Assembly: GCA_017303475.1 (NCBI GenBank)
Contig: JAFLBO010000014.1
Coordinates: 76,782 to 140,781 of the forward strand
Direction of reading: 5' to 3'
Origin: Chitinophagales bacterium
GTDB lineage: Bacteria > Bacteroidota > Bacteroidia > Chitinophagales > Saprospiraceae
Length of the DNA stretch: 64,000 nt
Shown here: positions 20,228-39,487 of the stretch, piece by piece
Layout: each line of letters starts with the position of its first letter
Position numbering within the stretch: the first letter of the stretch is position 1
Notes under the pieces: generated by a model
Told to the model about the DNA's origin: nothing
Databases searched by the model: none
What the model saw: only the letters and a program-made list of their open reading frames with translations
Program-made: the position numbers and the translations under genes

Positions 20228-20232
20228 CTAAA

Positions 20233-21474: not shown

Positions 21475-21480
21475 TGTCAG

Positions 21481-22815: not shown

Positions 22816-24025
22816 ATTCGGTACGGGCTTGCAAGAGTTGTTGCAGGAGGTCGAGTTGGCTAAGGCGGCTCATTTTGAGTTCTAACCAGGCATCGATAGT
22901 CATAAAAAGTTCGTCGGTGTTTTGTTCCCAAGCCAGCAGGGTACTTTGAAAGCGTTTACGCTGGTTGGGGATGATGTCGCGCTCGTAGCGGTCTATTTGT
23001 TCCTGTAGCGTCTGCATCATCACAAGTCGGTCAGCGAGGTTGCCCCGGATTTGGTTGATGAAGTCGGCTTTTTGGTACTCGAAAGCGGTAAGTCGGTGGT
23101 CAATTCCCTCAATGCGGGCTTTGATATCTTTGTTTGCCCAAGGGGCTAACGGCACTGTCACCATACCCATAAGCGAAAACTGCCATGGTGTACCGCCAAA
23201 AGCAAACATATGATCGAAGCGCAACCCGTATTCAGGTTTCAATTTCGAGCGTTGCCATTCCTGTTCAAGGCGGGCGATTTGGAGATTGGTCTCGATTGCG
23301 CGAAAATCACTGCGGGCAGCAATCCGTGCAGAATCAGCTTGCACGGGAATTGGCGACAATCGCCATCGGGCGCTGTCAATCTCGAAAGCGGTTGCGGGAT
23401 CGCGTTGCATCAGAGCGTTGAGCATAATGCGTTGCTGGCGAATTTCGCCTGCGTACATGGCCTGCATCCGTTCGAGGTTGGCCAATTCGGTTTGGGCTTT
23501 ATAGACGCTGCCGAGTTTCTCACGGTTATACTGGAACCGCTGTTCGGCACTTTCGATGAGCAGGCGTAGGGCATTTTTACTCTCTTCAAGCACGGCAATT
23601 TTTTTTCCCAGAACCAGCCAACTATAATATGCGGTTTTTGCTTCGGCAAACAACATATTTTGCATCACCCCTCGTTCGGCGACTTCCATGCCAGACATAG
23701 CACCCATATATCGTTGCTCAGCTCGTTGCATGTTGCGATTGGGGAACATCTGCTCTCCCGTTATCATGAATGCGCCCATACCTTCGCTCCACCGGGCAGG
23801 GTTGTATGGGGTCATCCAAAAACCACCGCCGATCTGGGGTGAGGGCATGGTAATAGCGCCTTTAGCGTAAGTGTCAAGCTCGCGAATGCGCGCGTCGGTG
23901 GCTTGTAGACGCGGGTGCACGGTCTCGATGCGGGTCAGGATGCTGTCGAGGGAGAGCGTAGTTTGACCGCCTAAATCGAAGGCTGCAAGCAGCAGCAAGA
24001 TGATAAATTTTAATCTGTTCTTCAT
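22790..24025 (-). CDS. TolC-family outer membrane efflux protein (CusC-like)
   Basis: 411 aa with a signal peptide and two repeated coiled-coil/barrel halves (...[23 protein letters not shown]..., ...[18 protein letters not shown]). It starts 1 nt after the pump stop, and its own stop overlaps the adaptor start by 26 nt. Confidence 0.8.
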
Positions 24026-24026
24026 C

Positions 24027-25937
24027 TCAATCGTTGAATTGAACGAGTTTCAGTGTTCCGGTTTCCCTCAATTCGTATTCCCTTACGATGGCAAACAGCA
24101 CCGGCAGCACAATCAGCACAAAAAGCGTAGAGGTAATCAGACCGAACACAAAGGGTATAACAATGGGTTTCATCACATCGCTGCCCGTCCCGGTAGCCAG
24201 CAGCACGGGCAAGAGGCCAATAATATCTACCATGACTGTCATCAGTTTGGGGCGCAAACGAAGAACAGCGCCGTCGTAAATAGCGTCTTCGACATCCTGA
24301 TTGGTGAAAGATCTGCTTTCTGCTTTCAGTTTGGATGATTTATCGTACAGCGAATTGTTCATATAAACAAGCATCAGGATACCCGTTTCCACGGCCACAC
24401 CAAACAGTGCAATGAACCCGACAGCCACAGCGACCGAAAAATTGACATCAAAAAAATGAAGGGAATACGCGCCGCCAACGAGCGCGACGGGTATGCCAGT
24501 GAGGACAATCAGTGTTTCGCGAAAAGATTTAAAAGTGAAATACAGGATCATCATAATGATGACAAGCACAATCGGCATGATAATCGTCAGACGCTCGTTC
24601 GCACGCACCTGGTTTTCGTATTGGCCGCTCCATTCTAAGAAATACCCCTTCGGTAGTTTCTGTACGGCGGTTTCCAACTTCTTTTTTGCATCAGCCACGG
24701 TGCTTCCCAAATCGCGGTCGCGTACATTGAACAAAAGCGTTCCGCGCAGCAATGCATTTTCGGAATTGATCATTGGGGGGCCGTCTGAAACACTTACATC
24801 GGCTACTGCTGAAAGCGGAATAGGCCCATATTCCATCGTTTGCATTTGCAACCGTTTCAATTTTTCAATTTTATCCCTGAAATCCTGCGCGAAGCGGACG
24901 TTCACTGAAAAACGTTGCCGCCCTTCAATCGTTGTAGTGACGTTCATGCCACCCAACGCCGTCTCGATAAACATATTCACATCGTCTATAGTCAGCCCGT
25001 AGCGCCCAATTTCATCTTTTCGAATTTTTATGTCAACATACATTCCTCCGGTAATCGGCTCGGCATACAAATCCTTCACACCATCAACGCCCTGCAACTC
25101 TAGCCTGAACTGTTGCGCCAATTTGTTGATGGTATCAAGGTTCTGACCATATATTTTTACCCCTACATCCGTCCGGATCCCGGTGGAAAGCATATTGATC
25201 CGGTTGATGATGGGCTGCGTCCAGCCATTCACTACGCCGGGAATTTGAAGTTTGGCGTTGAGTTGGTCAATGATGTCGTTTTTTGTCATCCCGTCTCGCC
25301 ACTGCGATTGTGGTTTGAGCAGAATGATCGTTTCAATCATGCTCACGGGTGCGTTGTCGGTGGCGGAGTTCGCTCTGCCCGCTTTACCCAGCACATTTTC
25401 CACTTCGGGAAAATCTTTGATGATTTTGTCCTGCACCTGCATGATGCGTTTGATTTCGGAGTTGGAAACGCTGGGCAAGGTGACCGGCATAAACAAAAGC
25501 GAACCTTCGTCCAACGGGGGCATAAACTCCGTACCGAGATTCAGTACCAGGGGAATACTGCCCAGCACAAGTGCAACGCTCAACACAACGGTTGTTTTTT
25601 TCCACCGCATACACAAAAGGATGATGGGCGAATAAATCCACTTGAAAAAACGAGAAACGGGGTGCTTGCTTTCCGGGCGAATTTTTCCTTTCAAAAGCAT
25701 GACCATCAAAACCGGGACGAGGAACACTACGACAAAGGCAGAGCCTATCATGGCAAAAGTCTTTGTCCATACGAGCGGAGAAAACAGTTTGTGCTCCTGC
25801 CCGGTGAGGAACAAAATCGGACTGAATGACACCAACGTGATGAGGATGGAGCTCACGATGGCACCTCCAATCAGTTTGGATGATTTTTCAATCCGGGATT
25901 CTCTTTCTTCGTTGCTGAGCATATTATTCTGTTTCAT
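24027..25937 (-). CDS. CusA/CzcA-family RND pump, C-terminal fragment (TM5 to TM12) of a frameshift-split gene
   Basis: LIGGAIVSSILITLVSFSPILFLTGQEHKLFSPLVWTKTFAMIGSAFVVVFLVPVLM..., through the second large periplasmic loop and the TM8-12 region. It overlaps the N-terminal fragment by 14 nt in another frame. Confidence 0.85.
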   Translation of the reverse strand: MKQNNMLSNEERESRIEKSSKLIGGAIVSSILITLVSFSPILFLTGQEHKLFSPLVWTKTFAMIGSAFVVVFLVPVLMVMLLKGKIRPESKHPVSRFFKWIYSPIILLCMRWKKTTVVLSVALVLGSIPLVLNLGTEFMPPLDEGSLLFMPVTLPSVSNSEIKRIMQVQDKIIKDFPEVENVLGKAGRANSATDNAPVSMIETIILLKPQSQWRDGMTKNDIIDQLNAKLQIPGVVNGWTQPIINRINMLSTGIRTDVGVKIYGQNLDTINKLAQQFRLELQGVDGVKDLYAEPITGGMYVDIKIRKDEIGRYGLTIDDVNMFIETALGGMNVTTTIEGRQRFSVNVRFAQDFRDKIEKLKRLQMQTMEYGPIPLSAVADVSVSDGPPMINSENALLRGTLLFNVRDRDLGSTVADAKKKLETAVQKLPKGYFLEWSGQYENQVRANERLTIIMPIVLVIIMMILYFTFKSFRETLIVLTGIPVALVGGAYSLHFFDVNFSVAVAVGFIALFGVAVETGILMLVYMNNSLYDKSSKLKAESRSFTNQDVEDAIYDGAVLRLRPKLMTVMVDIIGLLPVLLATGTGSDVMKPIVIPFVFGLITSTLFVLIVLPVLFAIVREYELRETGTLKLVQFND

Positions 25938-27186
25938 TTACAAGAGATTTCATTGCGTTTTCAACCATAACAATACCGGCATCTACCAAATCGCCCACGG
26001 CCAGGGCGATGCCTGCCAGCGACATGATGTTGGAGGTAATCCCAAACCAACTCATCAGGATGAATGAAATAAGCACCGAAATCGGGATAGTAATGACCAC
26101 AATCAGGGTGCTCCTAACGTGTAGCAGGAAAATAAAAAGCACGATGCACACCACGATGATTTCTTCGATGACAGCTTCTTTCAACGTGGCGATGGTGGCT
26201 TCTATCAGATCGGAGCGGTCGTAAGCCATTTTGAATTTAACGCCAGGCGGCAGGCCTTTTTCTACGTCTTTTAGTTTTTCTTTCAAGCGGTCAATCACAT
26301 CCTTTGCGTTTTCTCCGTACCGCATCACGACGATGCCGCCTACTTTTTCGCCTTCGCCGTTTTCTTCGACAATGCCTAAACGGAGTTCGCCGCCCATTTG
26401 CACTGCTGCCACATCGCGTACTTTTATCGGGATGCTATTCAGGGTTTTGAGTGTGATGTTTTCAATTTCACGCATGTCTTTGATATAGCCCAATCCCCGG
26501 ATGATGTAGCCAATGTCAGATTGCTCGAACTTCCTGCCGCCCACGTCGTTGTTGTTCGCCTTTATTTTTTCGGCGACCTCCATAATGCTGATGCCGTAAT
26601 AATTGAGTTTCAAGGGATCCACCACCACCTGGTATTGTTTCTGGAAACCGCCATACGAGGCAACCTCGCTCACCCCTTTCACGGTTTGCAGCGCGAATCG
26701 GATGTACCAATCCTGCAATGCCCGCAACTCCCCCAGATCATAGCCGGGCGCATCAAGCGTGTACCAATAAATATGTCCCAACCCTGTTCCGTCTGGTCCG
26801 AGTGTCGGGACAACCCCTTCAGGAAGAAGGCGTTGCGCATAATTCAAACGTTCCAGTACACGGGTGCGAGCCCAATAAATATCCACGTCGTCTTCAAAAA
26901 CCACGAATACAAAACTCATCCCGAACATACTGTTCGCGCGGATATTTTTCACCTTTGGGATACCCTGCAAATTACTTACAAGTGGATACGTGACCTGGTC
27001 TTCCATGATTTGGGGGCTTCGCCCCATCCACTCGGTGAAAATGATGACCTGATTTTCCGACAAATCGGGAATGGCATCAACAGGCGTATTCTTCACTGCG
27101 AAAATCCCATACGCGGCAACAGCCGCAGACATCAACAAAACGACGATGCGGTTTTTAAGCGACCAAGTGATTAGAGCATCAATCAT
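25924..27186 (-). CDS. CusA/CzcA-family RND pump, N-terminal fragment (TM1 to TM4) of a frameshift-split gene
   Basis: Real start is ATG 27186 (MIDALITWSLKNRIVVLLMSAAVAAYGIFAVKNTPVDAIPDLSENQVIIFTEWMGRSPQIMEDQVTYPL...). It ends ...GDLVDAGIVMVENAMKSLVNETE*. The start overlaps the upstream ATPase stop in ATGA. Confidence 0.85.
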   Translation of the reverse strand: MIDALITWSLKNRIVVLLMSAAVAAYGIFAVKNTPVDAIPDLSENQVIIFTEWMGRSPQIMEDQVTYPLVSNLQGIPKVKNIRANSMFGMSFVFVVFEDDVDIYWARTRVLERLNYAQRLLPEGVVPTLGPDGTGLGHIYWYTLDAPGYDLGELRALQDWYIRFALQTVKGVSEVASYGGFQKQYQVVVDPLKLNYYGISIMEVAEKIKANNNDVGGRKFEQSDIGYIIRGLGYIKDMREIENITLKTLNSIPIKVRDVAAVQMGGELRLGIVEENGEGEKVGGIVVMRYGENAKDVIDRLKEKLKDVEKGLPPGVKFKMAYDRSDLIEATIATLKEAVIEEIIVVCIVLFIFLLHVRSTLIVVITIPISVLISFILMSWFGITSNIMSLAGIALAVGDLVDAGIVMVENAMKSLVNETE

Positions 27187-29891
27187 AGTTTTCCATTTTG
27201 AAAAAATGCTAAATGTTTGCCCAGCCGGATGATAATCATCGTCAGCAGACCTGCTCCTATGCACACTACCCAATCGGCTGGCGACATAGGCGCGACGGAA
27301 AGCGCCGTCCGTACTGGTCCAATTTGATACAACCCTATGATAATGCATATACAAGCAGCAATGGCATACCAAACGTATTGATTGCGGACAACCTCGGTGC
27401 GCCAAAACGGAACGGCAATCGAACCCATATTGAAAACATGGAACAACTGACTGAAAATCAGTGTAAAAAACAGAATGTTGTTACAGCGTTGCACCAACCA
27501 ATCATCACTATTATGGATAAAAAAGTGACTGAAATATACGGCTCCGATAGTGCCTGCTGACAAAACAATCGAATAAAAAACAATCCTTCGCCAACGCGCC
27601 CGATCTATGATCGGCTCGTCCGGGTTTCGGGGCCGATGTGCCATAACACCTGGACTGCCAGCAGTAACACCCAATGCCAGCGCGGGCAGTACGTCCGTGA
27701 TAAGATTAATGAATAGAATTTGAAGAGGTTTCAATTGGAAATGCAAAAAGAGCAGCGAAACGGAAGATATTACAAGCAATTCGCTCAAATTACAGGACAA
27801 CAGAAAGACCACAAATTTTCGTATATTGTCGAAAATGACCCGTCCCTGCCGAATGGCAGTAATGATGCTGGCAAAGCTATCGTCACGCAGTACCATGTCG
27901 GCAACTTCTTGCGCCACCTGGGTACCACGTTGCCCCATGGCAATACCAATATCTGCTTTTTTGAGTGCGGGCGCATCGTTTACACCATCACCAGTCATAC
28001 CTACTATGGCTTTTCGTTCCTGGAAAACGCGTACCAAATCGAGTTTTTGTTTAGGACTGACACGTGCGAAGATTTTGGTTGTCGCCCAACGCGATTTATC
28101 CTCGGCGCTGAGGTTTTCAAAGTCTGGCATCTCTTTTCCCAACACCACCTCGGTGTTATCGGAGTCAATGATGCCCAACTGCCTGCCGATGGCTTTTGCG
28201 GTGGCTGGATGGTCTCCAGTAACCATCACCACTTCAATGCCTGCTTTTCGGCATTCGCTTATGGCGGCTGGAATTTCCTTTCTCGGCGGATCAATCAATC
28301 CGAAAAGCCCGGCAAAAACTAATTTTTCAGTCAAGTTCTCCGAATCGTAAGTATCGAGTTTAAATGCGCCCGCAATTACTTTTAACCCCGAAGAAGCCAT
28401 TTTTTCCGCTTCGACGAGCCATGCTTTGTGGTGCAATGGAGACATCGGGATGTATTTACCGGCATCGATTAGAAAGGAGCAACATTCCAATAAATCTTCG
28501 GCAGCACCTTTAGCAAAAACCATATTGCCTTCCGGTGTCTGATGCTGAGTCGCCATGATTTTAGTTTCGGAAGAAAAGGGTATTTCCGACAGCTTTGGGC
28601 ATTGAAGGCGAATGCGATTAATATCCTCACCCTGACGAAGTGCAAATTTGAGGAGTCCGGTTTCGAGTGGGTCGCCGATTTCGAGAAAATCTCCTTTTTG
28701 GGCAGAAATGTCAGCGTTGTTGCACAAGATGCCGATTTGCAGGAGGCGGCCATACTCCGCTTTTGGCAAGCTGTCTGCTGGAAGAGATTTTTCATCATCA
28801 CGCTTTTTCCATGCGCCACCAGGGGAAACCAGCGCTTCGACCTCCATTTTGTTTTGCGTGAGCGTTCCGGTTTTGTCTGTACAAATAACCGTGGTTCCTC
28901 CCAGGGTCTCCACCGCCGAAAGTTTGCGCACAATCACATTGTGGTGAGCCAGTCTGAGCATCCCTTGGGCCAGGGCAAGAGTAGCGACAATTGGCAATCC
29001 TTCAGGGACTGCGGCTACGCCAAGCGCAATCGCGGTTTCGAGCATTTCTACAATGGGTTTTCCGCCAATGACTCCTATACCGAAAATAACGACCACTAAG
29101 CCTACCGTAATTTTAATAAGCCGACCACTGAATGCTTCCAATTTACGCTCTAAAGGCGTGACGGCTTGATCAGATGTGCCCACAAGATGTGCGATTTTTC
29201 CTAATTCGGTATTCATGCCAGTCCCTGTGACCACGGCCCATCCGTTTCCTTTGGTGATGAAAGTCCCTTTGAAAAGCAGGTTCGACTGTTCTGCCAATGG
29301 CGTGTCGGTAGGTAATATGGCTGGCGCTTTTTCGACCGGTACACTCTCACCCGTAAGAGAGGCTTCGTCTACCTGCATTTGGGCACTGTTGAAGAGTCGG
29401 GCATCGGCAGGTGTCATATCTCCCGCTTCGAGGTAAATCACATCGCCAGGTACGAGTATTTCGCTGTTGATTTCCGACAGACTTCCATCGCGTAGCACTT
29501 TGACAGAGATGGAAACCATTTTTTTTAAAGCCTCCATGCTGCGCCCGGCCTGAAATTCCATGTAGAATCCTATAATGGCGTTGATGAAAATCACTACCAA
29601 TATGGCTATCCCGTCCAGCCATTCCTGGAAAGCGAAGGACAATCCCGCTGCAACGAACAACAGCAATACGATTGGGCTTTTAAATTGCCTTAAAAAAATG
29701 ACCCAGGCAGGTGTTTGCTCCCCTTGGGAAATGGCGTTGGGACCAACCAATTCCAAACGTGCAGCTGCTTCTGTTGCTGTAAGGCCATGCACAGTATCTG
29801 TGCTTATGCGGGAAATCAACTCATCCTCCCCTAAAGACCAGATAGGGATGTCTGATTTGCTCAGTATGTTGTTTTTATTACTTTTTACCAT
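27183..29891 (-). CDS. P2-type (Ca2+/Mg2+/Na+-K+-like) cation-transporting P-type ATPase; not a P1B heavy-metal pump
   Basis: Cation_ATPase_N-like GLTATEAAARLELVGPNAI. Motifs TGESVPVEK, ICTDKTGTLTQNKM, VMVTGDHPATA and MTGDGVNDAPALKKADIGIAMG. 902 aa, with no CPx motif and no HMA domain. Confidence 0.9.
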   Translation of the reverse strand: MVKSNKNNILSKSDIPIWSLGEDELISRISTDTVHGLTATEAAARLELVGPNAISQGEQTPAWVIFLRQFKSPIVLLLFVAAGLSFAFQEWLDGIAILVVIFINAIIGFYMEFQAGRSMEALKKMVSISVKVLRDGSLSEINSEILVPGDVIYLEAGDMTPADARLFNSAQMQVDEASLTGESVPVEKAPAILPTDTPLAEQSNLLFKGTFITKGNGWAVVTGTGMNTELGKIAHLVGTSDQAVTPLERKLEAFSGRLIKITVGLVVVIFGIGVIGGKPIVEMLETAIALGVAAVPEGLPIVATLALAQGMLRLAHHNVIVRKLSAVETLGGTTVICTDKTGTLTQNKMEVEALVSPGGAWKKRDDEKSLPADSLPKAEYGRLLQIGILCNNADISAQKGDFLEIGDPLETGLLKFALRQGEDINRIRLQCPKLSEIPFSSETKIMATQHQTPEGNMVFAKGAAEDLLECCSFLIDAGKYIPMSPLHHKAWLVEAEKMASSGLKVIAGAFKLDTYDSENLTEKLVFAGLFGLIDPPRKEIPAAISECRKAGIEVVMVTGDHPATAKAIGRQLGIIDSDNTEVVLGKEMPDFENLSAEDKSRWATTKIFARVSPKQKLDLVRVFQERKAIVGMTGDGVNDAPALKKADIGIAMGQRGTQVAQEVADMVLRDDSFASIITAIRQGRVIFDNIRKFVVFLLSCNLSELLVISSVSLLFLHFQLKPLQILFINLITDVLPALALGVTAGSPGVMAHRPRNPDEPIIDRARWRRIVFYSIVLSAGTIGAVYFSHFFIHNSDDWLVQRCNNILFFTLIFSQLFHVFNMGSIAVPFWRTEVVRNQYVWYAIAACICIIIGLYQIGPVRTALSVAPMSPADWVVCIGAGLLTMIIIRLGKHLAFFQNGKL

Positions 29892-29910
29892 TGTAAATTA
29901 TGGTTGGGCA

Positions 29911-30783
29911 CTATTCTGATATGGCCGTCGCCAGCAGACCCGCGACGTCAATGCGATTAGATGGGTGTTGAATTGTATTGCAACTAATAACCTGGGCAGC
30001 CCCCGCGACAACTAAGTCGTCGTAAGCATTGCCTGCGAAAACCGGGTGTACACCGATACAGACCGGCGCAACCATACCCGATACATGGAGATGCCCTACC
30101 GTTTCTATCATGGTATGGGCGGTCGAAATGATGTCGTCCACCAAAACCGGGGTGCGTCCATGGTATGCCGCCACAGCAGGTTTTGAGACTTCCACCTCGT
30201 GGTCGCTATGACGAACTTTTTCAAGTACAAGAAAAGGCGATTCCGCTGCTGCTGCTACTTTCGATACCCATTGCTCACTTTCACTATCAGGCCCTATGAT
30301 AATGGGGTTGACCACATTTTGCCGAATCCAGTCAGACACTAACGGCGCGGCGTGGATGGCTTTGCAAGGGATGGCATAGAGTTCCGACATAGAACCATGC
30401 CGGTGTAAGTGGGGGTCAATGGTGATAAGCCGGTCCACAAAAGAGGAAAGCAGTGCGGCAAAATAATTGCTTGTAACCGCTTCGCCCGGATTGAACACCT
30501 TGTCCTGTCGCATATAAGCTAAGTAAGGTGCTATTAGTGTGACAGATTTTGCACCACTGTCTTTGAGTAATTTCGTTAAGTAATATAGGGGTAAAATCTT
30601 ATCGTCAGGTTGAAACAAGGTGCAGACGATGACCGTTTGCTGCTCCTTAACTTCGCAAAGCAGCCTGACATAGCTTTCCCCGTCCGGGAAACGGTGAACC
30701 GTAAAAATGCCCAATTCGGCATCCAAATGGCGCGATATGCCGCGTGCCAGAACCGTATTTCCGGGCAATGCAAATATCTTCAT
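29911..30783 (-). CDS. Ribose-phosphate pyrophosphokinase (PRPP synthetase) family protein
   Basis: MKIFALPGNTVLARGISRHLDAELGIFTVHRFPDGESYVRL and PRPP-binding loop PVLVDDIISTAHTM. ATGA overlap with the upstream gene. Confidence 0.8.
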   Translation of the reverse strand: MKIFALPGNTVLARGISRHLDAELGIFTVHRFPDGESYVRLLCEVKEQQTVIVCTLFQPDDKILPLYYLTKLLKDSGAKSVTLIAPYLAYMRQDKVFNPGEAVTSNYFAALLSSFVDRLITIDPHLHRHGSMSELYAIPCKAIHAAPLVSDWIRQNVVNPIIIGPDSESEQWVSKVAAAAESPFLVLEKVRHSDHEVEVSKPAVAAYHGRTPVLVDDIISTAHTMIETVGHLHVSGMVAPVCIGVHPVFAGNAYDDLVVAGAAQVISCNTIQHPSNRIDVAGLLATAISE

Positions 30784-32360
30784 GATGAAAGTATTAAAAG
30801 TTCAGGTGCAATCGAGCGGAGGAATTCTTTGGCGTAGTCCAGCTCACCGGCGGATTCAGCAAAAACTGAAAGTAACAGATCGCGTCGGGCAATGGACGTG
30901 CCTAATGGTGCATAAAATCGCAAACCTGCTCCCGGCGACTTGGGAGCACCAGCAAGTTTGGCAAGACGAGCCAGTTGACGATTGTCAATTTTCTCGACCC
31001 GACCAGCTCTATCACTAAACCAATCGTAACGAAATTGGGCGCGCATTGGCTCTTTTATTGAACCCTGTGCGTGGCAAATCGCCACGAACTTTTCAAATGC
31101 TTTCCCACTTTCCAGCAGCTTCGTGGCTTGCTTTAATGATTCATTTTCTGTGAAATGCCCGGATATTTCCAACAGATTTGCAGCCAGGCTCATTGCACGT
31201 TGTTTTAGATCCTCAGGAGCATATTGGTCATTTCGTAACACCGCCAGTACGTCCAAGGCTTCCAGTGCCGGGCCAATGCCCACCCCAACTGGCTGTGTAC
31301 CATCGGTAATGACCGTTTTCACCTGCAAACCAATGGCCTGACCAACGGTATTAAAGCGAATCGCAAGGTTTTTAGCCTCTTCTGCTGTGCGAACCTTGGC
31401 CGTTTCACCAACCGGAATGTCAATGATCACATGAGTGGAACCAGCGGCGGCTTTTTTGGAAAGCACTGAAGCAATCATTTGACCTTCGCTGTCGATATCG
31501 AGTGCTTTTTCCACTGAAATGATGACATCGTCCGCCGGGCTTAACTGCATGGCACCGCCCCAGGCGAAGCACCCGCCTTCTTTTTCCACTACTTTGCGCA
31601 TTTCACTTAGTGTCAAATCTACCCGTGTAAGTGTTTCCATCGTGTCTGCGGTGCCTGCGGGGGAGGTGATGGCACGGGAAGAAGTCTTGGGGATGGTCAG
31701 CCCGGCGGCAGCTACGATGCTGACCACAATGGGCGTGGTGCGGTTGCCTGGCAAACCACCGATACAGTGTTTGTCCAGAATGATGGCTTTATTCCAATAC
31801 AGTTTTTCGCCTTTTTTAATCATCGCTCGGGTGAGGCTGATAATTTCCGGATCGGACAGGTTTTTACCGGAACAAGCTGTGATAAAGGCGGCGAGTTCGA
31901 CGTTGGAATAGCGTCCATCTGCTATGTCGTTTATGATGGCCTCAAATGCCGCACTTTCAAGTACATGACCATACATTTTTGAGCGAACCAACTTGAATGA
32001 TTCCATGGGTTTCAAATGCCCGACTTGAATCAGGTAGCCTTCCTGCACCTGCAAACGCTTCAGTGCCTCGTTGGAAAGCCCTGCTTCACCGTGGCCGACC
32101 AAATCGGACACCACATTCAGGGTTGCGATGATGCTTCGCTCGCCATAATACACCACAATTCTGGTAAGCGCAGAAAAACCCTCTGACTTACAGATAGGAC
32201 AGTCCCCTCGCATATAAATGATGTTCTCGCGGTAAGTGTCAATGTTTACAGACCGTACTTTAAGCGAATTGGAGGGTACATGCTCTCTGTCCATCTTAGC
32301 ATTGTCAGTGTCATGGTCAGCTGACTCATGTTTAAATGTAGTGGTTAACGCGTCTTCCAT
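30780..32360 (-). CDS. Thymidine phosphorylase / AMP phosphorylase family protein (long ~500-aa type)
   Basis: DKHCIGGLPGNRTTPIVVSIVAAAGLTIPKTSSRAITSPAGTADTME plus a glycosyl-transferase family 3 core. 526 aa. Confidence 0.8.
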   Translation of the reverse strand: MEDALTTTFKHESADHDTDNAKMDREHVPSNSLKVRSVNIDTYRENIIYMRGDCPICKSEGFSALTRIVVYYGERSIIATLNVVSDLVGHGEAGLSNEALKRLQVQEGYLIQVGHLKPMESFKLVRSKMYGHVLESAAFEAIINDIADGRYSNVELAAFITACSGKNLSDPEIISLTRAMIKKGEKLYWNKAIILDKHCIGGLPGNRTTPIVVSIVAAAGLTIPKTSSRAITSPAGTADTMETLTRVDLTLSEMRKVVEKEGGCFAWGGAMQLSPADDVIISVEKALDIDSEGQMIASVLSKKAAAGSTHVIIDIPVGETAKVRTAEEAKNLAIRFNTVGQAIGLQVKTVITDGTQPVGVGIGPALEALDVLAVLRNDQYAPEDLKQRAMSLAANLLEISGHFTENESLKQATKLLESGKAFEKFVAICHAQGSIKEPMRAQFRYDWFSDRAGRVEKIDNRQLARLAKLAGAPKSPGAGLRFYAPLGTSIARRDLLLSVFAESAGELDYAKEFLRSIAPELLILSS

Positions 32361-32389
32361 ATGGATACAATTTTTACGACATCTTTATT

Positions 32390-33775
32390 TTACAAATTGA
32401 ACAGCGTAATTTCTTCATCCTCTTTTGCTATTTGAGCAGGGATATGTAAGTCCTGTTCGATTTTGGCGCGGAAAATTTCTTGAGCAGGACTTTCCCCGTG
32501 TACGAGTATCACTTTCTGAACGGACTGACCCATCTGGCCGAGCCATTGCAGAAGTTCGGACTGGTCAGCATGACCCGACAAACCGGAAATTTCTTCAACA
32601 CTGGCTTTCACCGGCACGAATTGACCATGGATTTTTAATTCTGGTTCGCCGTTTTTCAAGCGTCGGCCACGTGTGCCCTCAGCTTGATACCCGATAAGCA
32701 GGATAGCATTTTTCGGGTCGGGGGCTAGGTATTTGAGATATTCGAGAACACGCCCCCCAGTGAGCATCCCGCTGGCAGAAATGACAATTTTTGACCCTGG
32801 CGTGGCGATGATTTTTTTGGTCTCGCGAAATTCGCGATTGATGACCACATCGTTACATACACTCATGCATTCATCATGTTTGAGTTTGTGCCACTGAGTG
32901 TGTCGGCACAAAATCTGGGTTGCATTGGCAGCCATAGGACTGTCGAGAAAAACGGGGAGACTGGCAGGAATACGCTCTTCGTGCTTGAGGGTATTCACGA
33001 GGTGCATGATTTCCTGGGCGCGCCCCACAGCGAAACTTGGAATGACAAGGCTTCCATGCCGCTTTATCACCCGATTGATGACCTCGGCCAATTCGTCCAA
33101 GGGATCATTGTCACCATGCAGTCGGTCGCCGTATGTGGACTCCATTACAACCAAATCGGCTTCGGGGATGGAGGAGGGTGGGAGCAGAAAACGCGATTCA
33201 TAACGTCCGATATCGCCGGAGAAAACAATTTTCTTGCCATAGCAACTTATCACAGCGGAGGCCGCGCCGAGTATATGTCCGTTTTTTCGGAAATGAAAAC
33301 TGAGATTGGGCGAAAGATGATACTCGATGCTGTGTTCGACAGTTTGAAACAGTGGAATTGCTTCGTCCACGTCCTTCTCATCGTACAGCGGTAGAGCGGG
33401 ATGGTGTTTGGAAAAGCCCATTCGGTTGGCTCTTTCGGCATCTTCTACCTGTATTTTGGCGCTGTCGTAAAGGATAAGTTCGGCCAGATCTGACGTCGGC
33501 GGGGTCATATAAATTTTTCCTCGGAACCCCCTTTTTACAAACAAAGGAATGTAGCCGCAGTGGTCGAGGTGGGCGTGGGTCAGTATCAGAGCATCCACCT
33601 CGGCTGGGTTGACGGGAATATCTTCCCAGTTCTTTTCGCGCAGGGTTTTTATGCCTTGGAACAGTCCGCAGTCCACTAGCAGAGTTAGTTCCGGGGTGCG
33701 GAGCAGGTGCTTGGAGCCGGTTACGGTTTGTGCCGCGCCCAATGATTGCATTGTGATTTTATGTGCGTCGTTCAT
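32390..33775 (-). CDS. MBL-fold metallo-hydrolase of the beta-CASP (RNA-metabolising) type
   Basis: LLVDCGLFQG and DALILTHAHLDHCGYIPLF (HxHxDH), followed by beta-CASP and C-terminal RNA-specificity-like regions (GLSGHADQSELLQW). Confidence 0.8.
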   Translation of the reverse strand: MNDAHKITMQSLGAAQTVTGSKHLLRTPELTLLVDCGLFQGIKTLREKNWEDIPVNPAEVDALILTHAHLDHCGYIPLFVKRGFRGKIYMTPPTSDLAELILYDSAKIQVEDAERANRMGFSKHHPALPLYDEKDVDEAIPLFQTVEHSIEYHLSPNLSFHFRKNGHILGAASAVISCYGKKIVFSGDIGRYESRFLLPPSSIPEADLVVMESTYGDRLHGDNDPLDELAEVINRVIKRHGSLVIPSFAVGRAQEIMHLVNTLKHEERIPASLPVFLDSPMAANATQILCRHTQWHKLKHDECMSVCNDVVINREFRETKKIIATPGSKIVISASGMLTGGRVLEYLKYLAPDPKNAILLIGYQAEGTRGRRLKNGEPELKIHGQFVPVKASVEEISGLSGHADQSELLQWLGQMGQSVQKVILVHGESPAQEIFRAKIEQDLHIPAQIAKEDEEITLFNL

Positions 33776-33851
33776 GTCATTTTACAAATAAATTGGCATA
33801 ATGCAGTAGTTGTAGCAAGCTTGCATTCAACTTTTGTTTGCCGAGTGGTGA

Positions 33852-34493
33852 TCAATGTTGTTTTTCTACTGTGGCAGTGTGATTTCTGCGCCTTTCTCTT
33901 AACTGCGTCTTAATTGGAAATTTTTTCAAAATACGATACACTGCCGGGTGCAAATTATCGGCCATAAAGGCAGGGTCGTACAGGTCGCCCTTGGCAGTTC
34001 CTGTCCACACAAGCCGTTTTAGGTGGCAATCATAAACATTCAGAGTGATCGTACTTTCGGCATAATCGTATCGCTCCGTGACATGGGTAGTGCGACCGTT
34101 TAGAAAGGGTGAGGGATAAAAATAATTATTCGGGTTTGGGTAGTAGTACGGATTACCCCTGACGCCAGAAACCGAGCCCTGATGTACAGTAGAGGTAATG
34201 GTCATTTGTTTAGGCATACTGCGGACTACTAATTGGAGTAGTATGTCCGGGGAATCTGGCTCTGCCTGTAACCCACGCTCGCCCATGCAGTGGGTGAAAT
34301 AATTGAGCGTGTTATTGCGGATGATTTGATTGTTGAATGTTGTGTTGGCGGTGTCGCGGTCGGGCAGCCAGGCAAATGTTTTGTATCGGGTGAAATTGGC
34401 CGTACGGTCGTAGTCGCTGTACACCTTGTTATAGGCAGTACAGTTGCTTAAAATTATCATCAGCGGGATGCACCAAAAAATGGTCCGATTCAT
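33852..34493 (-). CDS. DUF4136-like lipoprotein
   Basis: Lipobox ILSNC; YSDYDRTANFTRYKTFAWL matches my memory of the DUF4136 start. Confidence 0.55.
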   Translation of the reverse strand: MNRTIFWCIPLMIILSNCTAYNKVYSDYDRTANFTRYKTFAWLPDRDTANTTFNNQIIRNNTLNYFTHCMGERGLQAEPDSPDILLQLVVRSMPKQMTITSTVHQGSVSGVRGNPYYYPNPNNYFYPSPFLNGRTTHVTERYDYAESTITLNVYDCHLKRLVWTGTAKGDLYDPAFMADNLHPAVYRILKKFPIKTQLRERRRNHTATVEKQH

Positions 34494-34663
34494 GATTTTT
34501 TAATTTTTAGTGAATTGTCAAATTGATTTACACCAATTCAAAAAGGGCAGCCCCCCATTGGGAGAATGACGAAGAAGAATTATAACCTTTGGGAAGGCTG
34601 CCCAACCCCGAATCCTGCTTAAAATCCAGGGTGTTTTTTGATTGTTTTTTTGTATTTTGAACA

Positions 34664-36112: not shown

Positions 36113-36116
36113 GATT

Positions 36117-38353: not shown

Positions 38354-38360
38354 AGCTCCA

Positions 38361-38933: not shown

Positions 38934-38989
38934 AACATGCCAGTTTTGAAGATGGATTTAATACCAGAATTTACTGGATCATTGGAGGC

Positions 38990-39487
38990 TTAACCTGACT
39001 GCTCATTTTGCGGTTCCATGGCTTTTTTTGTGTCATTCAACATATTATTCAGACACCAATTACAGTACAACGGTCCAAAAAGGAAGGAAAGCAATCTAAA
39101 AAACCAAGCCTTCGGTGGTTCATAGGTGATAGACATCGAAACTATGGTTCCGTTTTCAGCAGGAGTAATTTTAAACCCCATACGGTACCAGCGCATGATG
39201 ATGATTTGAGCCTCTCCAATTGTCACCCATTCTTTCAGTTTGGGGGGCTCCCACTTGGTCACCTTCTCCTCAAAATCAATGGTCATGCCCATCATCTTTC
39301 CATACCACCGATACTTTGCACCAAGGCCGGATGAATTGGGGGATAGTTGTTCCAGCTTCAATTTGCTTCCCATCATCATCATGGAACTTTCACTCATGTG
39401 CATTCCCGTTTTTGAAAAGTCGTCCATCTGGGCAAAGACTATTTCAGGCGCGGCCTGAATAATTGCGGTTTTATGCCTGGATTTCAT
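38990..39487 (-). CDS. SRPBCC (START/polyketide-cyclase-like) family protein
   Basis: The ~160-aa length and pattern (IIQAAPEIVFAQMDDFSKTG...KWEPPKLKEWVTIG...) fit SRPBCC. Confidence 0.6.
   Translation of the reverse strand: MKSRHKTAIIQAAPEIVFAQMDDFSKTGMHMSESSMMMMGSKLKLEQLSPNSSGLGAKYRWYGKMMGMTIDFEEKVTKWEPPKLKEWVTIGEAQIIIMRWYRMGFKITPAENGTIVSMSITYEPPKAWFFRLLSFLFGPLYCNWCLNNMLNDTKKAMEPQNEQSG

What the first reader, a model, noticed from the sequence alone, without database searches (positions are those of the whole stretch)
27183..33775. Four-gene nucleotide/ribose-phosphate + P2-ATPase module translationally spliced onto a copper RND operon
Four co-directional genes make up the module:
- A beta-CASP MBL nuclease-like gene (32390..33775).
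- A 526-aa thymidine/AMP-phosphorylase-family gene (30780..32360).
- A PRPP-synthetase-family gene (29911..30783).
- A P2-type ATPase, not a P1B type (27183..29891).

The junctions are a 29-nt gap, an ATGA overlap at 30780-30783, a 19-nt gap, and a second ATGA overlap at 27183-27186. In that second overlap the ATPase stop is embedded in the cusA-like start. The module is therefore physically, and probably translationally, joined to the pump-OMF-adaptor-adaptor operon.

None of the four is a known Cus/Cop component. From memory (unverified), the same families co-occur in low-oxygen or dormancy-type loci of proteobacteria and actinobacteria, and no biochemical role for the set is established.

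One speculation is stress-triggered RNA/nucleotide breakdown to ribose-1,5-bisphosphate/PRPP, coupled to divalent-cation pumping.
Basis: partly seen in the sequence, partly recalled or inferred. Interest (0 to 1): 0.7.

Follow-up and report, generated by a model that had tools for sequence, protein, structure and literature searches.

The report
Nucleotide-recycling genes wired into copper pumps
Four genes for RNA and nucleotide recycling plus a calcium-type ion pump really are fused onto a copper-efflux operon here, and the same gene set recurs inside copper-resistance islands across several bacterial phyla, which suggests an unrecognised metabolic back-up that keeps the building block PRPP available during copper stress.

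Summary
**Observation: confirmed.** All four ORFs, both gaps and both ATGA overlaps are exactly as described.

**What the four genes are**
- A beta-CASP RNase (nearest solved relative: TTHA0252).
- An AMP/NMP-phosphorylase-like "thymidine phosphorylase family" protein (NF003338).
- A PRK07199-type PRPP synthase.
- A P2A, Ca-type ATPase.

**Context in the window.** They sit in a roughly 55-kb, single-strand copper island. The downstream cusA is a natural two-gene split, not one gene.

**Comparative evidence**
- The phosphorylase-synthase pair (TP-PRS) is an invariant core in 83 genome loci from at least five phyla.
- It is usually accompanied by the RNase, an ATP-cone/Mrr nuclease (absent here) and a P-type ATPase, which is either P2 or copper P1B.
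- Of 57 loci with full flanks, 32 carry a heavy-metal transporter within 10 kb.
- 13 of 16 sampled plasmid loci carry copper or other metal genes.
- A Variovorax protein fuses the ribose-1,5-bisphosphate kinase PhnN to the same phosphorylase family. This ties the family to ribose-1,5-bisphosphate/PRPP chemistry.

**Published support**
- Cu(I) inhibits PRPP synthase, and extra prs raises copper tolerance in S. aureus.
- The trio is induced by low oxygen in Bradyrhizobium.

**Best reading (about 0.45).** This is a PRPP-supply and nucleotide-recycling arm of copper defence, co-expressed with Cu(I) efflux.

**Verdict.** I found no literature on this link. I rate it a new variant of a known kind, with moderately high interest.

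The parts
32390..33775 (-). beta-CASP metallo-beta-lactamase-fold RNase (461 aa), first gene of the module
   Evidence: Pfam Beta-Casp 2e-33, RMMBL and Lactamase_B. HAHLDH motif at residue 67. Best solved relative is RNase TTHA0252 (2DKF), 261.7 bits. A homologue lies directly upstream of TP in 47 of 83 loci.
30780..32360 (-). AMP/NMP-phosphorylase-like 'thymidine phosphorylase family' protein (526 aa) with an N-terminal extension domain
   Evidence: NF003338 657.9 bits (cut-off 434). TIGR02645 590.5 bits (cut-off 434.6). TIGR03327 AMP_phos 491.5 bits, below its 535 cut-off. Best solved relative is T. kodakarensis AMP phosphorylase 4GA5/4GA6, 344.6 bits, against about 126 bits for true pyrimidine-nucleoside phosphorylases. 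The motif KTSSRAITSPAGTAD at residue 225 almost matches the AMP phosphorylase KTSSRAITSAAGTAD.
29911..30783 (-). PRK07199-type (archaeal class III-like) PRPP synthase homologue (290 aa); its start overlaps the TP stop (ATGA)
   Evidence: NF005537 391.3 bits (cut-off 322); the canonical class I model NF002320 scores only 136.8 (cut-off 297). Best solved relative is M. jannaschii PRPP synthase 1U9Y, 159 bits. FPDGE, RQDK, DPH, EKVR and DDIISTAHT are conserved. Adjacent to TP in 73 of 83 loci.
27183..29891 (-). P2A-type (Ca2+/Mn2+-type) P-type ATPase (902 aa); its stop overlaps the start of the CusA N-half gene (ATGA)
   Evidence: Pfam Cation_ATPase_N, E1-E2_ATPase, Cation_ATPase and Cation_ATPase_C. 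Best NCBIfam model is the PMR1-type Ca ATPase, 633 bits, below the 798 cut-off. Best solved relative is Listeria Ca2+-ATPase LMCA1 (6ZHF), 558 bits. Has PEGL, DKTGT, NLITD and SCNLSE; no CPx motif. P2 ATPases lie next to the module in 17 loci.
25924..27186 (-). CusA/CzcA-family RND pump, N-terminal half gene (420 aa: TM1, periplasmic domains, TM2-TM4)
   Evidence: ACR_tran profile positions 2-415; TIGR00914 positions 1-423. The end aligns to E. coli CusA chain residue about 425. All 120 best database hits are 418-439 aa long.
24027..25937 (-). CusA/CzcA-family RND pump, C-terminal half gene (636 aa from the ATG at 25937, or 631 aa from the ATG at 25922: TM5-TM12)
   Evidence: ACR_tran profile positions 417-1021. 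Aligns from CusA chain residue about 437. Called as a separate 631-aa gene in at least six independent assemblies. In L023 the halves are unlinked and in reverse order.
22790..24025 (-). Outer-membrane factor (CusC/TolC-like)
   Evidence: Pfam OEP 4.8e-22.
21481..22815 (-). CusB-like periplasmic adaptor 1 with heavy-metal-binding domain
   Evidence: Pfam HlyD_D23, HMBD and HlyD_D4.
20233..21474 (-). CusB-like periplasmic adaptor 2 with heavy-metal-binding domain
   Evidence: Pfam HlyD_D23 and HMBD.
33852..34493 (-). DUF4136 lipoprotein-like gene directly upstream of the RNase (76-nt gap); conserved upstream neighbour in related genomes
   Evidence: Pfam DUF4136 2.8e-26. Same position in L100 and L101, where TP is 84% identical to the window's.
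38990..39487 (-). SRPBCC-like 165-aa protein, a displaced accessory member of the extended module
   Evidence: 47-70% identical to genes lying beside or close to TP/PRS in 8 loci. Precomputed Polyketide_cyc2 hit, weak.

Best explanation
The four genes are the local copy of a widespread, horizontally mobile stress module. Its invariant core is an AMP/NMP-phosphorylase-like enzyme plus a divergent PRPP synthase. The core is usually joined by a beta-CASP RNase, and nearly always sits near a P-type ATPase.

**Proposed working**
1. The RNase (helped in other genomes by an ATP-cone/Mrr nuclease) releases 5'-NMPs from RNA.
2. The phosphorylase splits AMP/NMP with phosphate into free base plus ribose-1,5-bisphosphate.
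3. The ribose phosphate is returned to PRPP. The PRK07199-type synthase provides a second route to PRPP, independent of the housekeeping enzyme.
4. The P2A ATPase exports Ca2+ or another divalent cation.

**Why it sits here.** The module is transcribed with the Cus-type Cu(I) efflux pump because PRPP synthesis is a copper-sensitive bottleneck. Efflux lowers the copper level, while the module keeps nucleotide, NAD and histidine precursor supply going. Both are most needed at low oxygen, when Cu(I) predominates.

**Shown**
- The gene identities by homology.
- The operon-like packing.
- The recurrence of the set.
- Its linkage to metal transporters.
- The PhnN fusion.

**Inferred**
- The substrates.
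- The direction of flux.
- Copper tolerance of the second synthase.
- The ion pumped.
- Co-transcription.
For: **Anatomy**
- The junctions are -4, 19, -4 and 29 nt, and the genes are co-directional with the cus genes.
- The same ATPase/CusA-N 4-nt overlap is kept in relatives whose TP is only 84% identical.

**Homology**
- TP to AMP phosphorylase 4GA5, 345 bits.
- PRS to class III PRPP synthase 1U9Y, with catalytic motifs kept.
- RNase to TTHA0252.
- ATPase to LMCA1.

**Recurrence in 83 genome loci**
- PRS in 73.
- ATP-cone/Mrr nuclease in 51.
- beta-CASP in 47.
- P2 or P1B ATPase in 44.
- Phyla covered: Bacteroidota, Pseudomonadota, Spirochaetota, Verrucomicrobiota, Acidobacteriota.

**Metal linkage**
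- 32 of 57 full-flank loci have a P1B ATPase, CusA or CusB within 10 kb.
- P2 ATPase and CusA occur together in 7 further species.
- L004 has PRS followed by split CusA, overlapping by 4 nt in my ORF calls. L082 has CusA followed by TP-PRS. L054 embeds the module between the CusB genes and a P1B ATPase.
- 13 of 16 annotated plasmid loci carry copper or other metal genes. Among them are MBL-TP-PRS-CopA operons in Legionella, Roseibium and Celeribacter, a TP-PRS-CopA operon in Martelella (no MBL gene is listed there), and CueR/CopCD in Sphingobium SYK-6.

**Biochemical link**
- A Variovorax 717-aa protein fuses PhnN (TIGR02322, 179.7 bits, cut-off 156) to an NF003338 domain (604 bits), next to nadC.
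- PhnN converts ribose-1,5-bisphosphate to PRPP and was identified in a screen for suppressors of an E. coli prs deletion (PMC9700705; PMC11452294).

**Copper rationale**
- In S. aureus, 2-5 uM Cu(I) inhibits Prs in vitro, PRPP falls under copper, and prs overexpression raises tolerance. Ca(II) inhibits Salmonella Prs (PMC10249872).

**Low oxygen**
- The Bradyrhizobium trio and a CusA homologue are both induced by microoxia.

**Extra copy.** The pair occurs on 127 plasmids, 49 of them conjugative. It is therefore an additional copy, not the essential prs.
Against: - There are no expression or enzyme data for this organism. The promoter, terminator and FNR-box scans are at chance level.
- The phosphorylase misses the AMP phosphorylase equivalog cut-off (491.5 against 535). 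Its base-side motif differs from the archaeal enzyme (VEK against AER), so its substrates are unknown.
- The PRS homologue keeps every catalytic motif of an ordinary R5P-dependent synthase. Nothing shows that it is copper-tolerant or that it uses ribose-1,5-bisphosphate.
- Cu(I) inhibition of Prs has been shown only for the class I enzyme of S. aureus.
- 16 of 57 full-flank loci have no metal transporter or P2 ATPase nearby. Some contexts are purely stress or fermentation genes.
- The loci are phylogenetically non-independent, and they are the 80 closest relatives only.
- The window lacks the ATP-cone nuclease.
- The role of a Ca-type pump is the weakest link in the model.
Confidence: 0.45

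Rival explanations
1. The module is primarily a low-oxygen or energy-starvation RNA and nucleotide turnover system, of the lxa/DosR type. It is switched on by hypoxia, feeds ribose phosphate into fermentation or salvage, and uses the P2 ATPase as a CtpF-like Ca pump. Its closeness to cus reflects only shared anaerobic regulation, not a copper-specific metabolic role.
For: - bll3115-3117 are induced by microoxia.
- The lxa locus has a metal-dependent RNase and a cation ATPase.
- Universal stress proteins occur in 24 loci, 2-hydroxyacid dehydrogenase in 19, type II GAPDH in 12, class I aldolase in 11, and PFK and PPK2 in 8 each.
- The Sphingobium xenophagum plasmid locus has universal stress proteins, alcohol dehydrogenases and Pta.
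- The ATP-cone domain implies sensing of nucleotide level.
- Crp/Fnr-family regulators lie in the window (46697-47383) and in L002.
Against: - Metal transporters are commoner neighbours than universal stress proteins (32 against 20 of 57 full-flank loci).
- 13 of 16 plasmid loci are copper or other metal contexts, several with CueR, CopCD or metal sensors and no hypoxia genes.
- The window has no universal stress protein or fermentation genes near the module.
Confidence: 0.25
2. Hitch-hiking. The trio is selfish or neutral cargo that travels on the same plasmids, ICEs and islands as metal-resistance genes. The tight junction with cusA is just operon compaction, with no functional relation.
For: - The pair is on 127 plasmids, 65 of them conjugative or mobilizable.
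- Transposase or Tn genes lie beside it.
- The CusA halves are 94-97% identical to relatives while TP is 84%. This shows different histories.
- tRNA genes and an HTH_17 gene lie at the island edge.
Against: - Many independent architectures place the core inside metal operons with overlapping stop/start codons. Examples are L004, L023, L054 and L082, MBL-TP-PRS-CopA in three alphaproteobacterial and gammaproteobacterial genera, TP-PRS-CopA in Martelella, and P1B-MFS-TP-PRS in pSinB.
- The same accessory set (PPK2, P1B, MFS, 2-hydroxyacid dehydrogenase, type II GAPDH) is kept in Flavobacteriaceae and in an Acidovorax plasmid.
Confidence: 0.15
3. The TP-like protein is not a phosphorylase. Instead it is a PRPP-dependent phosphoribosyltransferase, as its distant relative TrpD is. 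The adjacent PRS (or the fused PhnN) supplies PRPP, and the product is an unknown ribotide, possibly a precursor of a metal ligand.
For: - It shares the fold family with anthranilate phosphoribosyltransferase (TIGR01245 hit at 7.5e-13).
- It is always paired with a PRPP-forming enzyme.
- nadC, another PRPP user, lies next to the fusion.
Against: - The protein is far closer to AMP phosphorylase (345 bits) than to TrpD, and has a near-identical phosphate-site motif.
- No other biosynthetic genes are conserved with the pair.
Confidence: 0.1
4. The module is an anti-phage nucleotide-depletion or nuclease defence system (nucleases plus a nucleotide-degrading enzyme).
For: It combines two nuclease-type proteins (beta-CASP, ATP-cone/Mrr) with a nucleotide phosphorylase. 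Weak Apyc1-like MBL hits are on record.
Against: - PADLOC gives no significant hit for any member.
- The neighbours are metabolic, stress and metal genes, not defence islands.
- The trio is induced by microoxia in Bradyrhizobium.
Confidence: 0.03
5. The genes are simply the organism's housekeeping prs and deoA.
For: They belong to the same superfamilies.
Against: - The PRS fails the class I housekeeping models: NF002320 136.8 against 297, and NF002618 123 against 460.
- TP fails the true thymidine and pyrimidine phosphorylase equivalogs: TIGR02643 150.5 against 570.7, and NF004747 154.9 against 559.
- The pair is carried on conjugative plasmids and has a patchy distribution.
- The whole genome could not be scanned for a second prs.
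Confidence: 0.02

Closest known systems
Archaeal AMP/NMP phosphorylase (T. kodakarensis TK0352/0353; PDB 4GA4-4GA6) of the pentose bisphosphate pathway
   Same: - Same fold and the same N-terminal extension domain.
- Strong similarity: 345 bits, with a near-identical KTSSRAITS.AGTAD phosphate-site motif.
- The archaeal enzyme cleaves AMP, CMP and UMP to ribose-1,5-bisphosphate (PMC9700705).
   Different: - The window protein scores below the AMP_phos equivalog cut-off.
- No ribose-1,5-bisphosphate isomerase or type III RuBisCO was seen in the window or in any annotated locus.
- The constant partner is instead a PRPP synthase homologue (or a fused PhnN).
- The setting is bacterial metal and stress islands.
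E. coli PhnN route (ribose-1,5-bisphosphate to PRPP), a known bypass of PRPP synthase
   Same: - It provides PRPP without the housekeeping Prs.
- PhnN is physically fused to the same phosphorylase subfamily in Variovorax, next to nadC.
   Different: The window encodes a PRS homologue, not PhnN. Whether that homologue acts on ribose-5-phosphate or on the bisphosphate is unknown.
Bradyrhizobium diazoefficiens bll3115-bll3117 (MBL hydrolase, PRPP synthase, thymidine phosphorylase family)
   Same: The same three families lie adjacent, and are induced at both protein and transcript level in microoxia (PMC6515984).
   Different: - Its P-type ATPase or Cus linkage was not examined.
- The paper only lists the genes and proposes no function.
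Low-oxygen loci: Burkholderia cenocepacia lxa locus and the M. tuberculosis DosR regulon
   Same: They contain a metal-dependent RNase (BCAM0300) and a cation-transporting P-type ATPase (BCAM0318; the paper likens it to a DosR-regulon gene), together with universal stress proteins and fermentation genes. The extended module has the same companions in Flavobacteriaceae and on a Sphingobium plasmid.
   Different: - No TP-PRS pair is listed in the lxa tables I could read.
- The window has no universal stress proteins, and its context is copper.
CusCFBA / CopA copper-efflux determinants
   Same: Physically one transcription-unit-like array with them here, and in many other genomes and plasmids.
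   Different: None of the four proteins is homologous to any Cus or Cop component. They are cytoplasmic metabolic enzymes plus a non-copper P2 pump.
S. aureus Prs as a Cu(I) target (Norambuena et al. 2023)
   Same: It gives a tested reason why extra PRPP-forming capacity protects against copper.
   Different: It concerns a different organism and the class I enzyme. That work describes no island-borne spare synthase or phosphorylase.

Membership tests
AMP/NMP phosphorylase (TIGR03327 equivalog) | Thymidine-phosphorylase fold (Glycos_trans_3N + Glycos_transf_3) | tested here: met
   Pfam hits at 6.8e-11 and 1.8e-12.
AMP/NMP phosphorylase (TIGR03327 equivalog) | Extra N-terminal domain of about 80-100 residues, absent from TP and PyNP | tested here: met
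   NF003338 aligns from residue 32. The 4GA5 alignment starts at chain residue 38, whereas true PyNP/TP chains align only from query residue about 120.
AMP/NMP phosphorylase (TIGR03327 equivalog) | Score above the curated equivalog cut-off | tested here: not met
   491.5 bits against a 535 cut-off. The protein passes NF003338 and TIGR02645 instead. It is therefore a sister subfamily and is not filed as an AMP phosphorylase.
AMP/NMP phosphorylase (TIGR03327 equivalog) | Phosphorolysis of AMP/CMP/UMP to ribose-1,5-bisphosphate | not testable with these tools
   Indirect support only, from the PhnN fusion.
AMP/NMP phosphorylase (TIGR03327 equivalog) | Genomic partnership with ribose-1,5-bisphosphate isomerase and type III RuBisCO | tested here: not met
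   Neither was found among the Pfam-scanned ORFs of the window. Neither appears in any RefSeq-annotated locus.
PRPP synthase, PRK07199 subfamily (NF005537) | Pribosyltran_N + Pribosyltran domains and a score above the cut-off | tested here: met
   391.3 bits against 322.
PRPP synthase, PRK07199 subfamily (NF005537) | Catalytic and binding motifs: FxDGE, RQD[KR], active-site His, K-x-R flexible loop, DD..[ST]..T ribose-phosphate loop | tested here: met
   FPDGE at 32, RQDK at 92, DPH at 123, EKVR at 188 and DDIISTAHT at 216. In the family consensus the fourth loop residue is R/H, where canonical enzymes have G.
PRPP synthase, PRK07199 subfamily (NF005537) | ATP + ribose-5-phosphate to PRPP + AMP activity | not testable with these tools
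   An enzyme assay is needed.
Housekeeping class I Prs | Score above the class I models | tested here: not met
   NF002320 136.8 against 297, and NF002618 123.1 against 460.
beta-CASP ribonuclease (TTHA0252 / RNase J / CPSF73 type) | MBL HxHxDH motif plus Beta-Casp and RMMBL domains | tested here: met
   HAHLDH at 67. Beta-Casp 2e-33 and RMMBL 3.9e-17. 2DKF 261.7 bits.
beta-CASP ribonuclease (TTHA0252 / RNase J / CPSF73 type) | RNase activity releasing 5'-NMPs | not testable with these tools
   Inferred from TTHA0252 homology only.
P2A Ca2+-ATPase (SERCA / PMR1 / LMCA1 type) | DKTGT, PEGL in TM4, N..E in TM5, N..TD in TM6, Cation_ATPase_N and _C domains; no CPx motif or HMA domain | tested here: met
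   LMCA1 558 bits.
P2A Ca2+-ATPase (SERCA / PMR1 / LMCA1 type) | Score above a Ca-ATPase equivalog cut-off; Ca2+ transport | tested here: not met
   TIGR01522 633 against 798.3, and TIGR01116 560.5 against 703.4. The transported ion is therefore not established.
Cus/Cop copper-efflux system components | Homology to CusA/B/C/F, CopA/Z or a multicopper oxidase | tested here: not met
   None of the four proteins hits these families. They are neighbours, not members.
Known anti-phage defence systems (PADLOC) | Significant match to a defence-system model | tested here: not met
   Only E = 7e-4 and 4e-4 fragment hits.

The most novel reading that the evidence does not exclude
Copper-resistance islands across Bacteroidota and Alpha-, Beta- and Gammaproteobacteria carry a dedicated 'target-bypass' metabolic arm.

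- It consists of a Cu(I)-insensitive PRPP synthase isozyme working with a bacterial NMP phosphorylase and an RNase. Together they rebuild PRPP from RNA and AMP through ribose-1,5-bisphosphate when the housekeeping Prs is poisoned.
- In the larger versions it also includes spare type II GAPDH, class I aldolase and PPK2.
- If so, PRPP supply (and glycolysis) would be a general primary target of copper toxicity, not one specific to S. aureus.
- This window would then be a copy in which that arm is translationally chained to a two-piece CusA pump.
Probability: 0.3. Interest if true: 0.8.

Novelty: new variant of a known kind. Interest (0 to 1): 0.66.

Why it matters
How copper actually stops bacterial growth is still debated. 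One recent study points to PRPP synthase in S. aureus. If mobile copper islands in several phyla have independently recruited a spare PRPP synthase, an NMP phosphorylase and an RNase, that is evolutionary evidence that nucleotide-precursor supply is a general weak point under copper stress.

It would also:
- define a bacterial use of the 'archaeal' ribose-1,5-bisphosphate chemistry;
- assign a role to thousands of genes now annotated only as 'thymidine phosphorylase family protein', 'ribose-phosphate pyrophosphokinase' or 'MBL fold metallo-hydrolase';
- add a metabolic component to what are considered pure efflux and oxidase resistance determinants carried on conjugative plasmids, Legionella plasmids among them.

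The idea is directly testable with three recombinant enzymes and one deletion mutant.

Tried and rejected
- **Promoter and terminator scans.** The sigma-70 promoter and terminator scan of 19600-39590 gave counts equal to shuffled sequence. The Bacteroidetes -33/-7 motif searches were also at chance, with no site in the gaps flanking the module. Operon boundaries therefore stay inferred from spacing.
- **FNR/CRP box (TTGAT-N4-ATCAA).** There were 4 hits against 3.9 expected. The hit at 34523-34536, upstream of DUF4136, lies in a spacer that relatives lack. I dropped it.
- **Rfam over the whole window.** Only two tRNAs were found, and no riboswitch.
- **PADLOC.** No hit, so the defence reading is rejected.
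- **cusA frameshift as sequencing error or pseudogene.** Rejected. The same split occurs in at least six independent assemblies. It also occurs in many taxa with different spacers, and once with the halves unlinked.
- **Energy-conservation idea.** I considered that the 1-phosphate of ribose-1,5-bisphosphate is passed to AMP to make ADP or ATP. I rejected it on thermodynamic grounds (my own reasoning): a sugar-1-phosphate has a lower transfer potential than ADP.
- **Literature.** Searches linking thymidine-phosphorylase-family genes to copper, plasmids or P-type ATPases found nothing relevant. The Hove-Jensen reviews and the Aono 2012 paper are not held.

Full report
**1. The observation.** I read each junction directly.
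- A 29-nt gap lies between the first two genes.
- An ATGA stop/start overlap lies at 30780-30783.
- A 19-nt gap follows.
- A second ATGA lies at 27183-27186, where the ATPase TGA sits inside the ATG of the RND pump gene.

The pump is followed by an outer-membrane factor and two CusB-like adaptors with heavy-metal-binding domains. One correction applies. The pump is encoded by two ORFs, 25924-27186 and 24027-25937, which together cover the AcrB/CusA profile positions 2-415 and 417-1021.

**2. What the four proteins are.**
- *Gene 1* has Lactamase_B, Beta-Casp and RMMBL domains and an HAHLDH motif. Its closest solved relative is the T. thermophilus RNase TTHA0252.
- *Gene 2* passes the NCBIfam models NF003338 and TIGR02645 but not the AMP-phosphorylase equivalog (491.5 against 535). 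It is far below the true thymidine and pyrimidine phosphorylase models. Its best solved relative by a wide margin is T. kodakarensis AMP phosphorylase (345 bits, against about 126 for PyNPs). The two share the N-terminal extra domain and an almost identical KTSSRAITS-AGTAD motif.
- *Gene 3* passes NF005537 (PRK07199) and fails the class I housekeeping Prs models. It is closest to the class III M. jannaschii enzyme and keeps the ATP, ribose-phosphate and flexible-loop motifs. In this family the fourth residue of the ribose-5-phosphate loop is R or H rather than G.
- *Gene 4* is a P2A ATPase with PEGL, DKTGT, NLITD, Cation_ATPase_N and Cation_ATPase_C, and no CPx or HMA. It is closest to the Listeria Ca2+-ATPase LMCA1 but is below every equivalog cut-off, so the ion is not settled.

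**3. The setting in the window.** The window matches a Chitinophagales MAG. From about 1 to 55 kb nearly every gene is on the minus strand and concerns copper. These genes include:
- three multicopper oxidases;
- HMBD/DUF3347 proteins;
- a P1B ATPase (8914-11022);
- an HMA protein;
- a galactose-oxidase-like protein;
- MbnP with two MauG-like peroxidases;
- a Crp/Fnr-family regulator (46697-47383) and an ECF sigma factor.

Two tRNA genes and an HTH_17 gene lie beyond a low-GC stretch at 54-61 kb. The scans for promoters, terminators and FNR boxes were uninformative.

**4. Related genomes.** A scan of one genome per species returned at least 590 relatives of gene 2, and I examined the best 80 plus three others. 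I used tblastn and all-against-all clustering of their ORFs. Counts out of 83 loci:

| Neighbour | Loci |
|---|---|
| PRS homologue next to the phosphorylase | 73 |
| 283-aa ATP-cone + Mrr-like nuclease (Pfam) | 51 |
| beta-CASP RNase | 47 |
| P2 or P1B ATPase | 44 (P2 in 17, copper-type P1B in 29) |
| Universal stress proteins | 24 |
| MFS transporter | 20 |
| 2-hydroxyacid dehydrogenase | 19 |
| CusA | 13 |
| Type II GAPDH | 12 |
| Class I aldolase | 11 |
| PFK | 8 |
| PPK2 | 8 |

The lineages include Bacteroidota, Gamma- and Betaproteobacteria, Leptospira, a Verrucomicrobia MAG and an acidobacterium. Of 57 loci with at least 8 kb on both sides, 54 have PRS, and 32 have a heavy-metal transporter (P1B, CusA or CusB) within 10 kb. 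My rough expectation for a random gene is a few per cent. That figure comes from general knowledge of gene counts, not from a computed control.

The architectures differ:
- L004 runs ATP-cone, P2 ATPase, TP, PRS, then a split CusA that overlaps PRS by 4 nt in my ORF calls.
- L082 (Burkholderiales) runs OMF, adaptor, CusA, TP, PRS.
- L054 (Chryseolinea) runs CusA, OMF, two adaptors, ATP-cone, PRS, P2 ATPase, TP, P1B ATPase.
- L023 places the CusA N-half directly before TP.

Relatives whose TP is 84% identical to the window's keep DUF4136, RNase, TP, (insert), PRS, ATPase and split CusA, with the same 4-nt ATPase/CusA overlap. The window lacks the ATP-cone gene. It does hold a displaced SRPBCC-like member at 38990-39487.

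**5. Plasmids.** The phosphorylase is found on 127 PLSDB plasmids, 49 of them conjugative. I took 16 annotated loci at even steps down the ranking, and 13 carry copper or other metal genes. Examples:
- Legionella pneumophila pH3-D-14: MBL, TP, PRS, CopA, then TolC, adaptor, RND.
- Roseibium and Celeribacter: MBL, TP, PRS, CopA. In Roseibium the stop and start codons overlap.
- Martelella: TP, PRS, CopA with overlapping stop and start codons; no MBL gene is listed in that locus.
- Sphingobium SYK-6: beta-CASP, TP, PRS beside CueR, a P1B ATPase and CopCD.
- Ralstonia, Acidovorax and Sinorhizobium pSinB: the recurring P1B-MFS pair. Acidovorax also has PPK2, hydroxyacid dehydrogenase and type II GAPDH, the same accessory set as Flavobacteriaceae.
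- L. adelaidensis, Shinella, Pontibacter, Novosphingobium and Azospirillum.

The three exceptions are a Sphingobium xenophagum locus rich in universal stress proteins and alcohol dehydrogenases, a Niveispirillum TP-MBL-helicase locus, and Variovorax.

**6. A fusion that links the chemistry.** In Variovorax SRS16 the match lies in a 717-aa protein. Its first 180 residues pass the PhnN equivalog (ribose-1,5-bisphosphokinase, PRPP-forming; 179.7 against 156). The rest scores 604 bits on NF003338. The gene sits between nadC and a Bug-family binding protein. Others had noted the nadC-phnN-bug arrangement without mentioning the phosphorylase domain (PMC11452294). PhnN turns ribose-1,5-bisphosphate into PRPP and was identified in a screen for suppressors of an E. 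coli prs deletion. The archaeal homologue of gene 2 makes ribose-1,5-bisphosphate from AMP, CMP and UMP (PMC9700705). The fusion therefore argues that this bacterial subfamily works one step from PRPP formation.

**7. Literature on physiology.**
- In Bradyrhizobium the trio bll3115-3117 is induced in microoxia at transcript and protein level, as is a CusA homologue. The paper makes no comment on function (PMC6515984).
- The Burkholderia lxa locus contains a metal-dependent RNase and a cation ATPase (PMC3721108).
- In S. aureus, Cu(I) at 2-5 uM inhibits purified Prs. PRPP falls by about half under copper, prs overexpression improves growth with copper and depletion worsens it. Ca(II) is cited there as a Prs inhibitor and GAPDH as another copper target (PMC10249872).
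- I found no paper linking thymidine-phosphorylase-family genes to copper determinants.

**8. Most likely mechanism (confidence about 0.45).** The module is a nucleotide-recycling and PRPP-supply arm of copper defence.
1. The RNase yields NMPs.
2. The phosphorylase converts AMP/NMP plus Pi to base plus ribose-1,5-bisphosphate.
3. The divergent synthase gives PRPP-forming capacity additional to the copper-sensitive housekeeping enzyme.
4. The P-type ATPase (Ca-type here, copper-type elsewhere) handles the cation.
5. The whole is expressed with Cu(I) efflux, which matters most when oxygen is low.

Homology, packing, recurrence, metal linkage and the fusion are shown. Substrates, flux direction, copper tolerance of the synthase, the pumped ion and co-transcription are inferred. 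The main weaknesses are these:
- There are no data from this organism.
- The AMP-phosphorylase equivalog test is failed.
- The PRS active site looks entirely ordinary.
- 16 of 57 full-flank loci have no nearby metal or P2 pump.
- The loci are not phylogenetically independent.

**9. Rivals.**
- *A purely hypoxia or energy-starvation role (0.25).* This fits the universal stress protein and fermentation neighbours and the Bradyrhizobium data. It fits the copper-only plasmid contexts less well.
- *Hitch-hiking on mobile metal islands (0.15).* This is weakened by the many independent in-operon insertions and by the conserved accessory set across phyla.
- *A PRPP-dependent transferase role for the TP-like protein (0.10).* This is possible but disfavoured by its closeness to AMP phosphorylase.
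- *Anti-phage defence (0.03) and housekeeping prs/deoA (0.02).* These are rejected by PADLOC, the family cut-offs and plasmid carriage.

**10. Side finding: a two-gene CusA.**
- The break falls in the cytoplasmic loop between TM4 and TM5, at about residues 425-437 of the E. coli CusA chain.
- It is present in at least six independent short-read assemblies of this organism.
- It recurs in L004 (twice), L018 and L020 with different spacers, and L021 also has a separate 636-aa C-half ORF. In L023 the halves are 4.4 kb apart and in reverse order.
- All 120 best database hits to the N-half are 418-439 aa long at 82-93% identity, and they include cultured Flavobacterium species.
- It is therefore a conserved natural split, not a pseudogene.

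**11. Verdict.** The parts belong to known enzyme families, and the ribose-1,5-bisphosphate/PRPP logic has archaeal and E. coli precedents. The bacterial module, its interchangeable P-type ATPase partner and its recurrent insertion into copper determinants are not described in the literature I could search. I rate it a new variant of a known kind, with interest 0.66.

Noticed in passing
window 24027-27186 (also L004, L018, L020, L021, L023, L100, L101): CusA is encoded as two genes: a 420-aa N-half and a 631/636-aa C-half. The break is in the TM4/TM5 cytoplasmic loop. The split is conserved in many Bacteroidota, and all 120 best hits to the N-half are 418-439 aa long. In L023 the halves are 4.4 kb apart and in reverse order. 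This is a natural split RND pump, annotated only as 'efflux RND transporter permease subunit'.
   Followed up: yes
L067:6597-7448 and 50 other loci; absent from the window: A conserved protein of about 283 aa combines an N-terminal ATP-cone (nucleotide-sensing) domain with an Mrr/PD-(D/E)xK nuclease-like domain. It lies at the head of most TP-PRS modules, and RefSeq names it 'ATP cone domain-containing protein'. It looks like a nucleotide-regulated nuclease of unknown function.
   Followed up: partly
L092:8242-10395 (Variovorax sp. SRS16 plasmid 4): A 717-aa fusion of PhnN (ribose-1,5-bisphosphokinase) with a thymidine-phosphorylase-family domain, next to nadC and a Bug/TctC binding protein. 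RefSeq annotates it simply as PhnN.
   Followed up: partly
L058:13347-17422, L095, L103, L105: A copper-type P1B ATPase followed by an MFS transporter recurs with TP-PRS in Flavobacteriaceae, Ralstonia, Acidovorax and Sinorhizobium. It is often accompanied by PPK2, a 2-hydroxyacid dehydrogenase and a type II (archaeal-type) GAPDH. This is a larger supermodule shared across phyla.
   Followed up: partly
window 38990-39487: An SRPBCC-like 165-aa protein is 47-70% identical to genes that lie beside or close to TP or PRS in 8 other loci. Here it lies 5 kb upstream in the same co-directional array.
   Followed up: partly
window 54000-61200: A GC drop to 0.41-0.44, an HTH_17 (excisionase-like) ORF at 60232-60639, and tRNA-Pro and tRNA-Ser at 60958-61141. 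This may be the boundary of the roughly 55-kb copper island. No integrase was identified.
   Followed up: partly
window 46697-54903: A Crp/Fnr-family regulator (46697-47383), two MauG/di-haem peroxidase genes, an MbnP-like copper-binding protein with a T9SS tail, and an ECF sigma factor (54358-54903) all lie in the same strand-biased island. The Crp/Fnr-family regulator and the ECF sigma factor are candidate regulators of the array. The peroxidase genes and MbnP point to copper acquisition.
   Followed up: no
window 34523-34536: TTGATTTACACCAA, which is one mismatch from an FNR/CRP box, lies about 30 nt upstream of the DUF4136 start and next to a sigma-70-like hexamer pair. The window-wide count is at chance, and the spacer is missing in relatives.
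   Followed up: yes
window 20233-22815: Two tandem CusB-like adaptors, each with an N-terminal heavy-metal-binding domain, serve one (split) pump. Paired adaptors also occur in L023 and L054.
   Followed up: no
L018:4043-4098: In Flavobacterium sp. UBA5153 the two CusA halves are separated by about 55 nt that contain a perfect palindrome, GAGACGCACTGCAGTGCGTCTC.
   Followed up: no
window 16051-17746 and 11030-13993: Three items: a His-rich PKD-repeat T9SS protein, a small HMA-domain protein with a C-terminal His-rich tail, and a galactose-oxidase-like Kelch/PKD T9SS protein. These are secreted copper-related proteins typical of the island.
   Followed up: no
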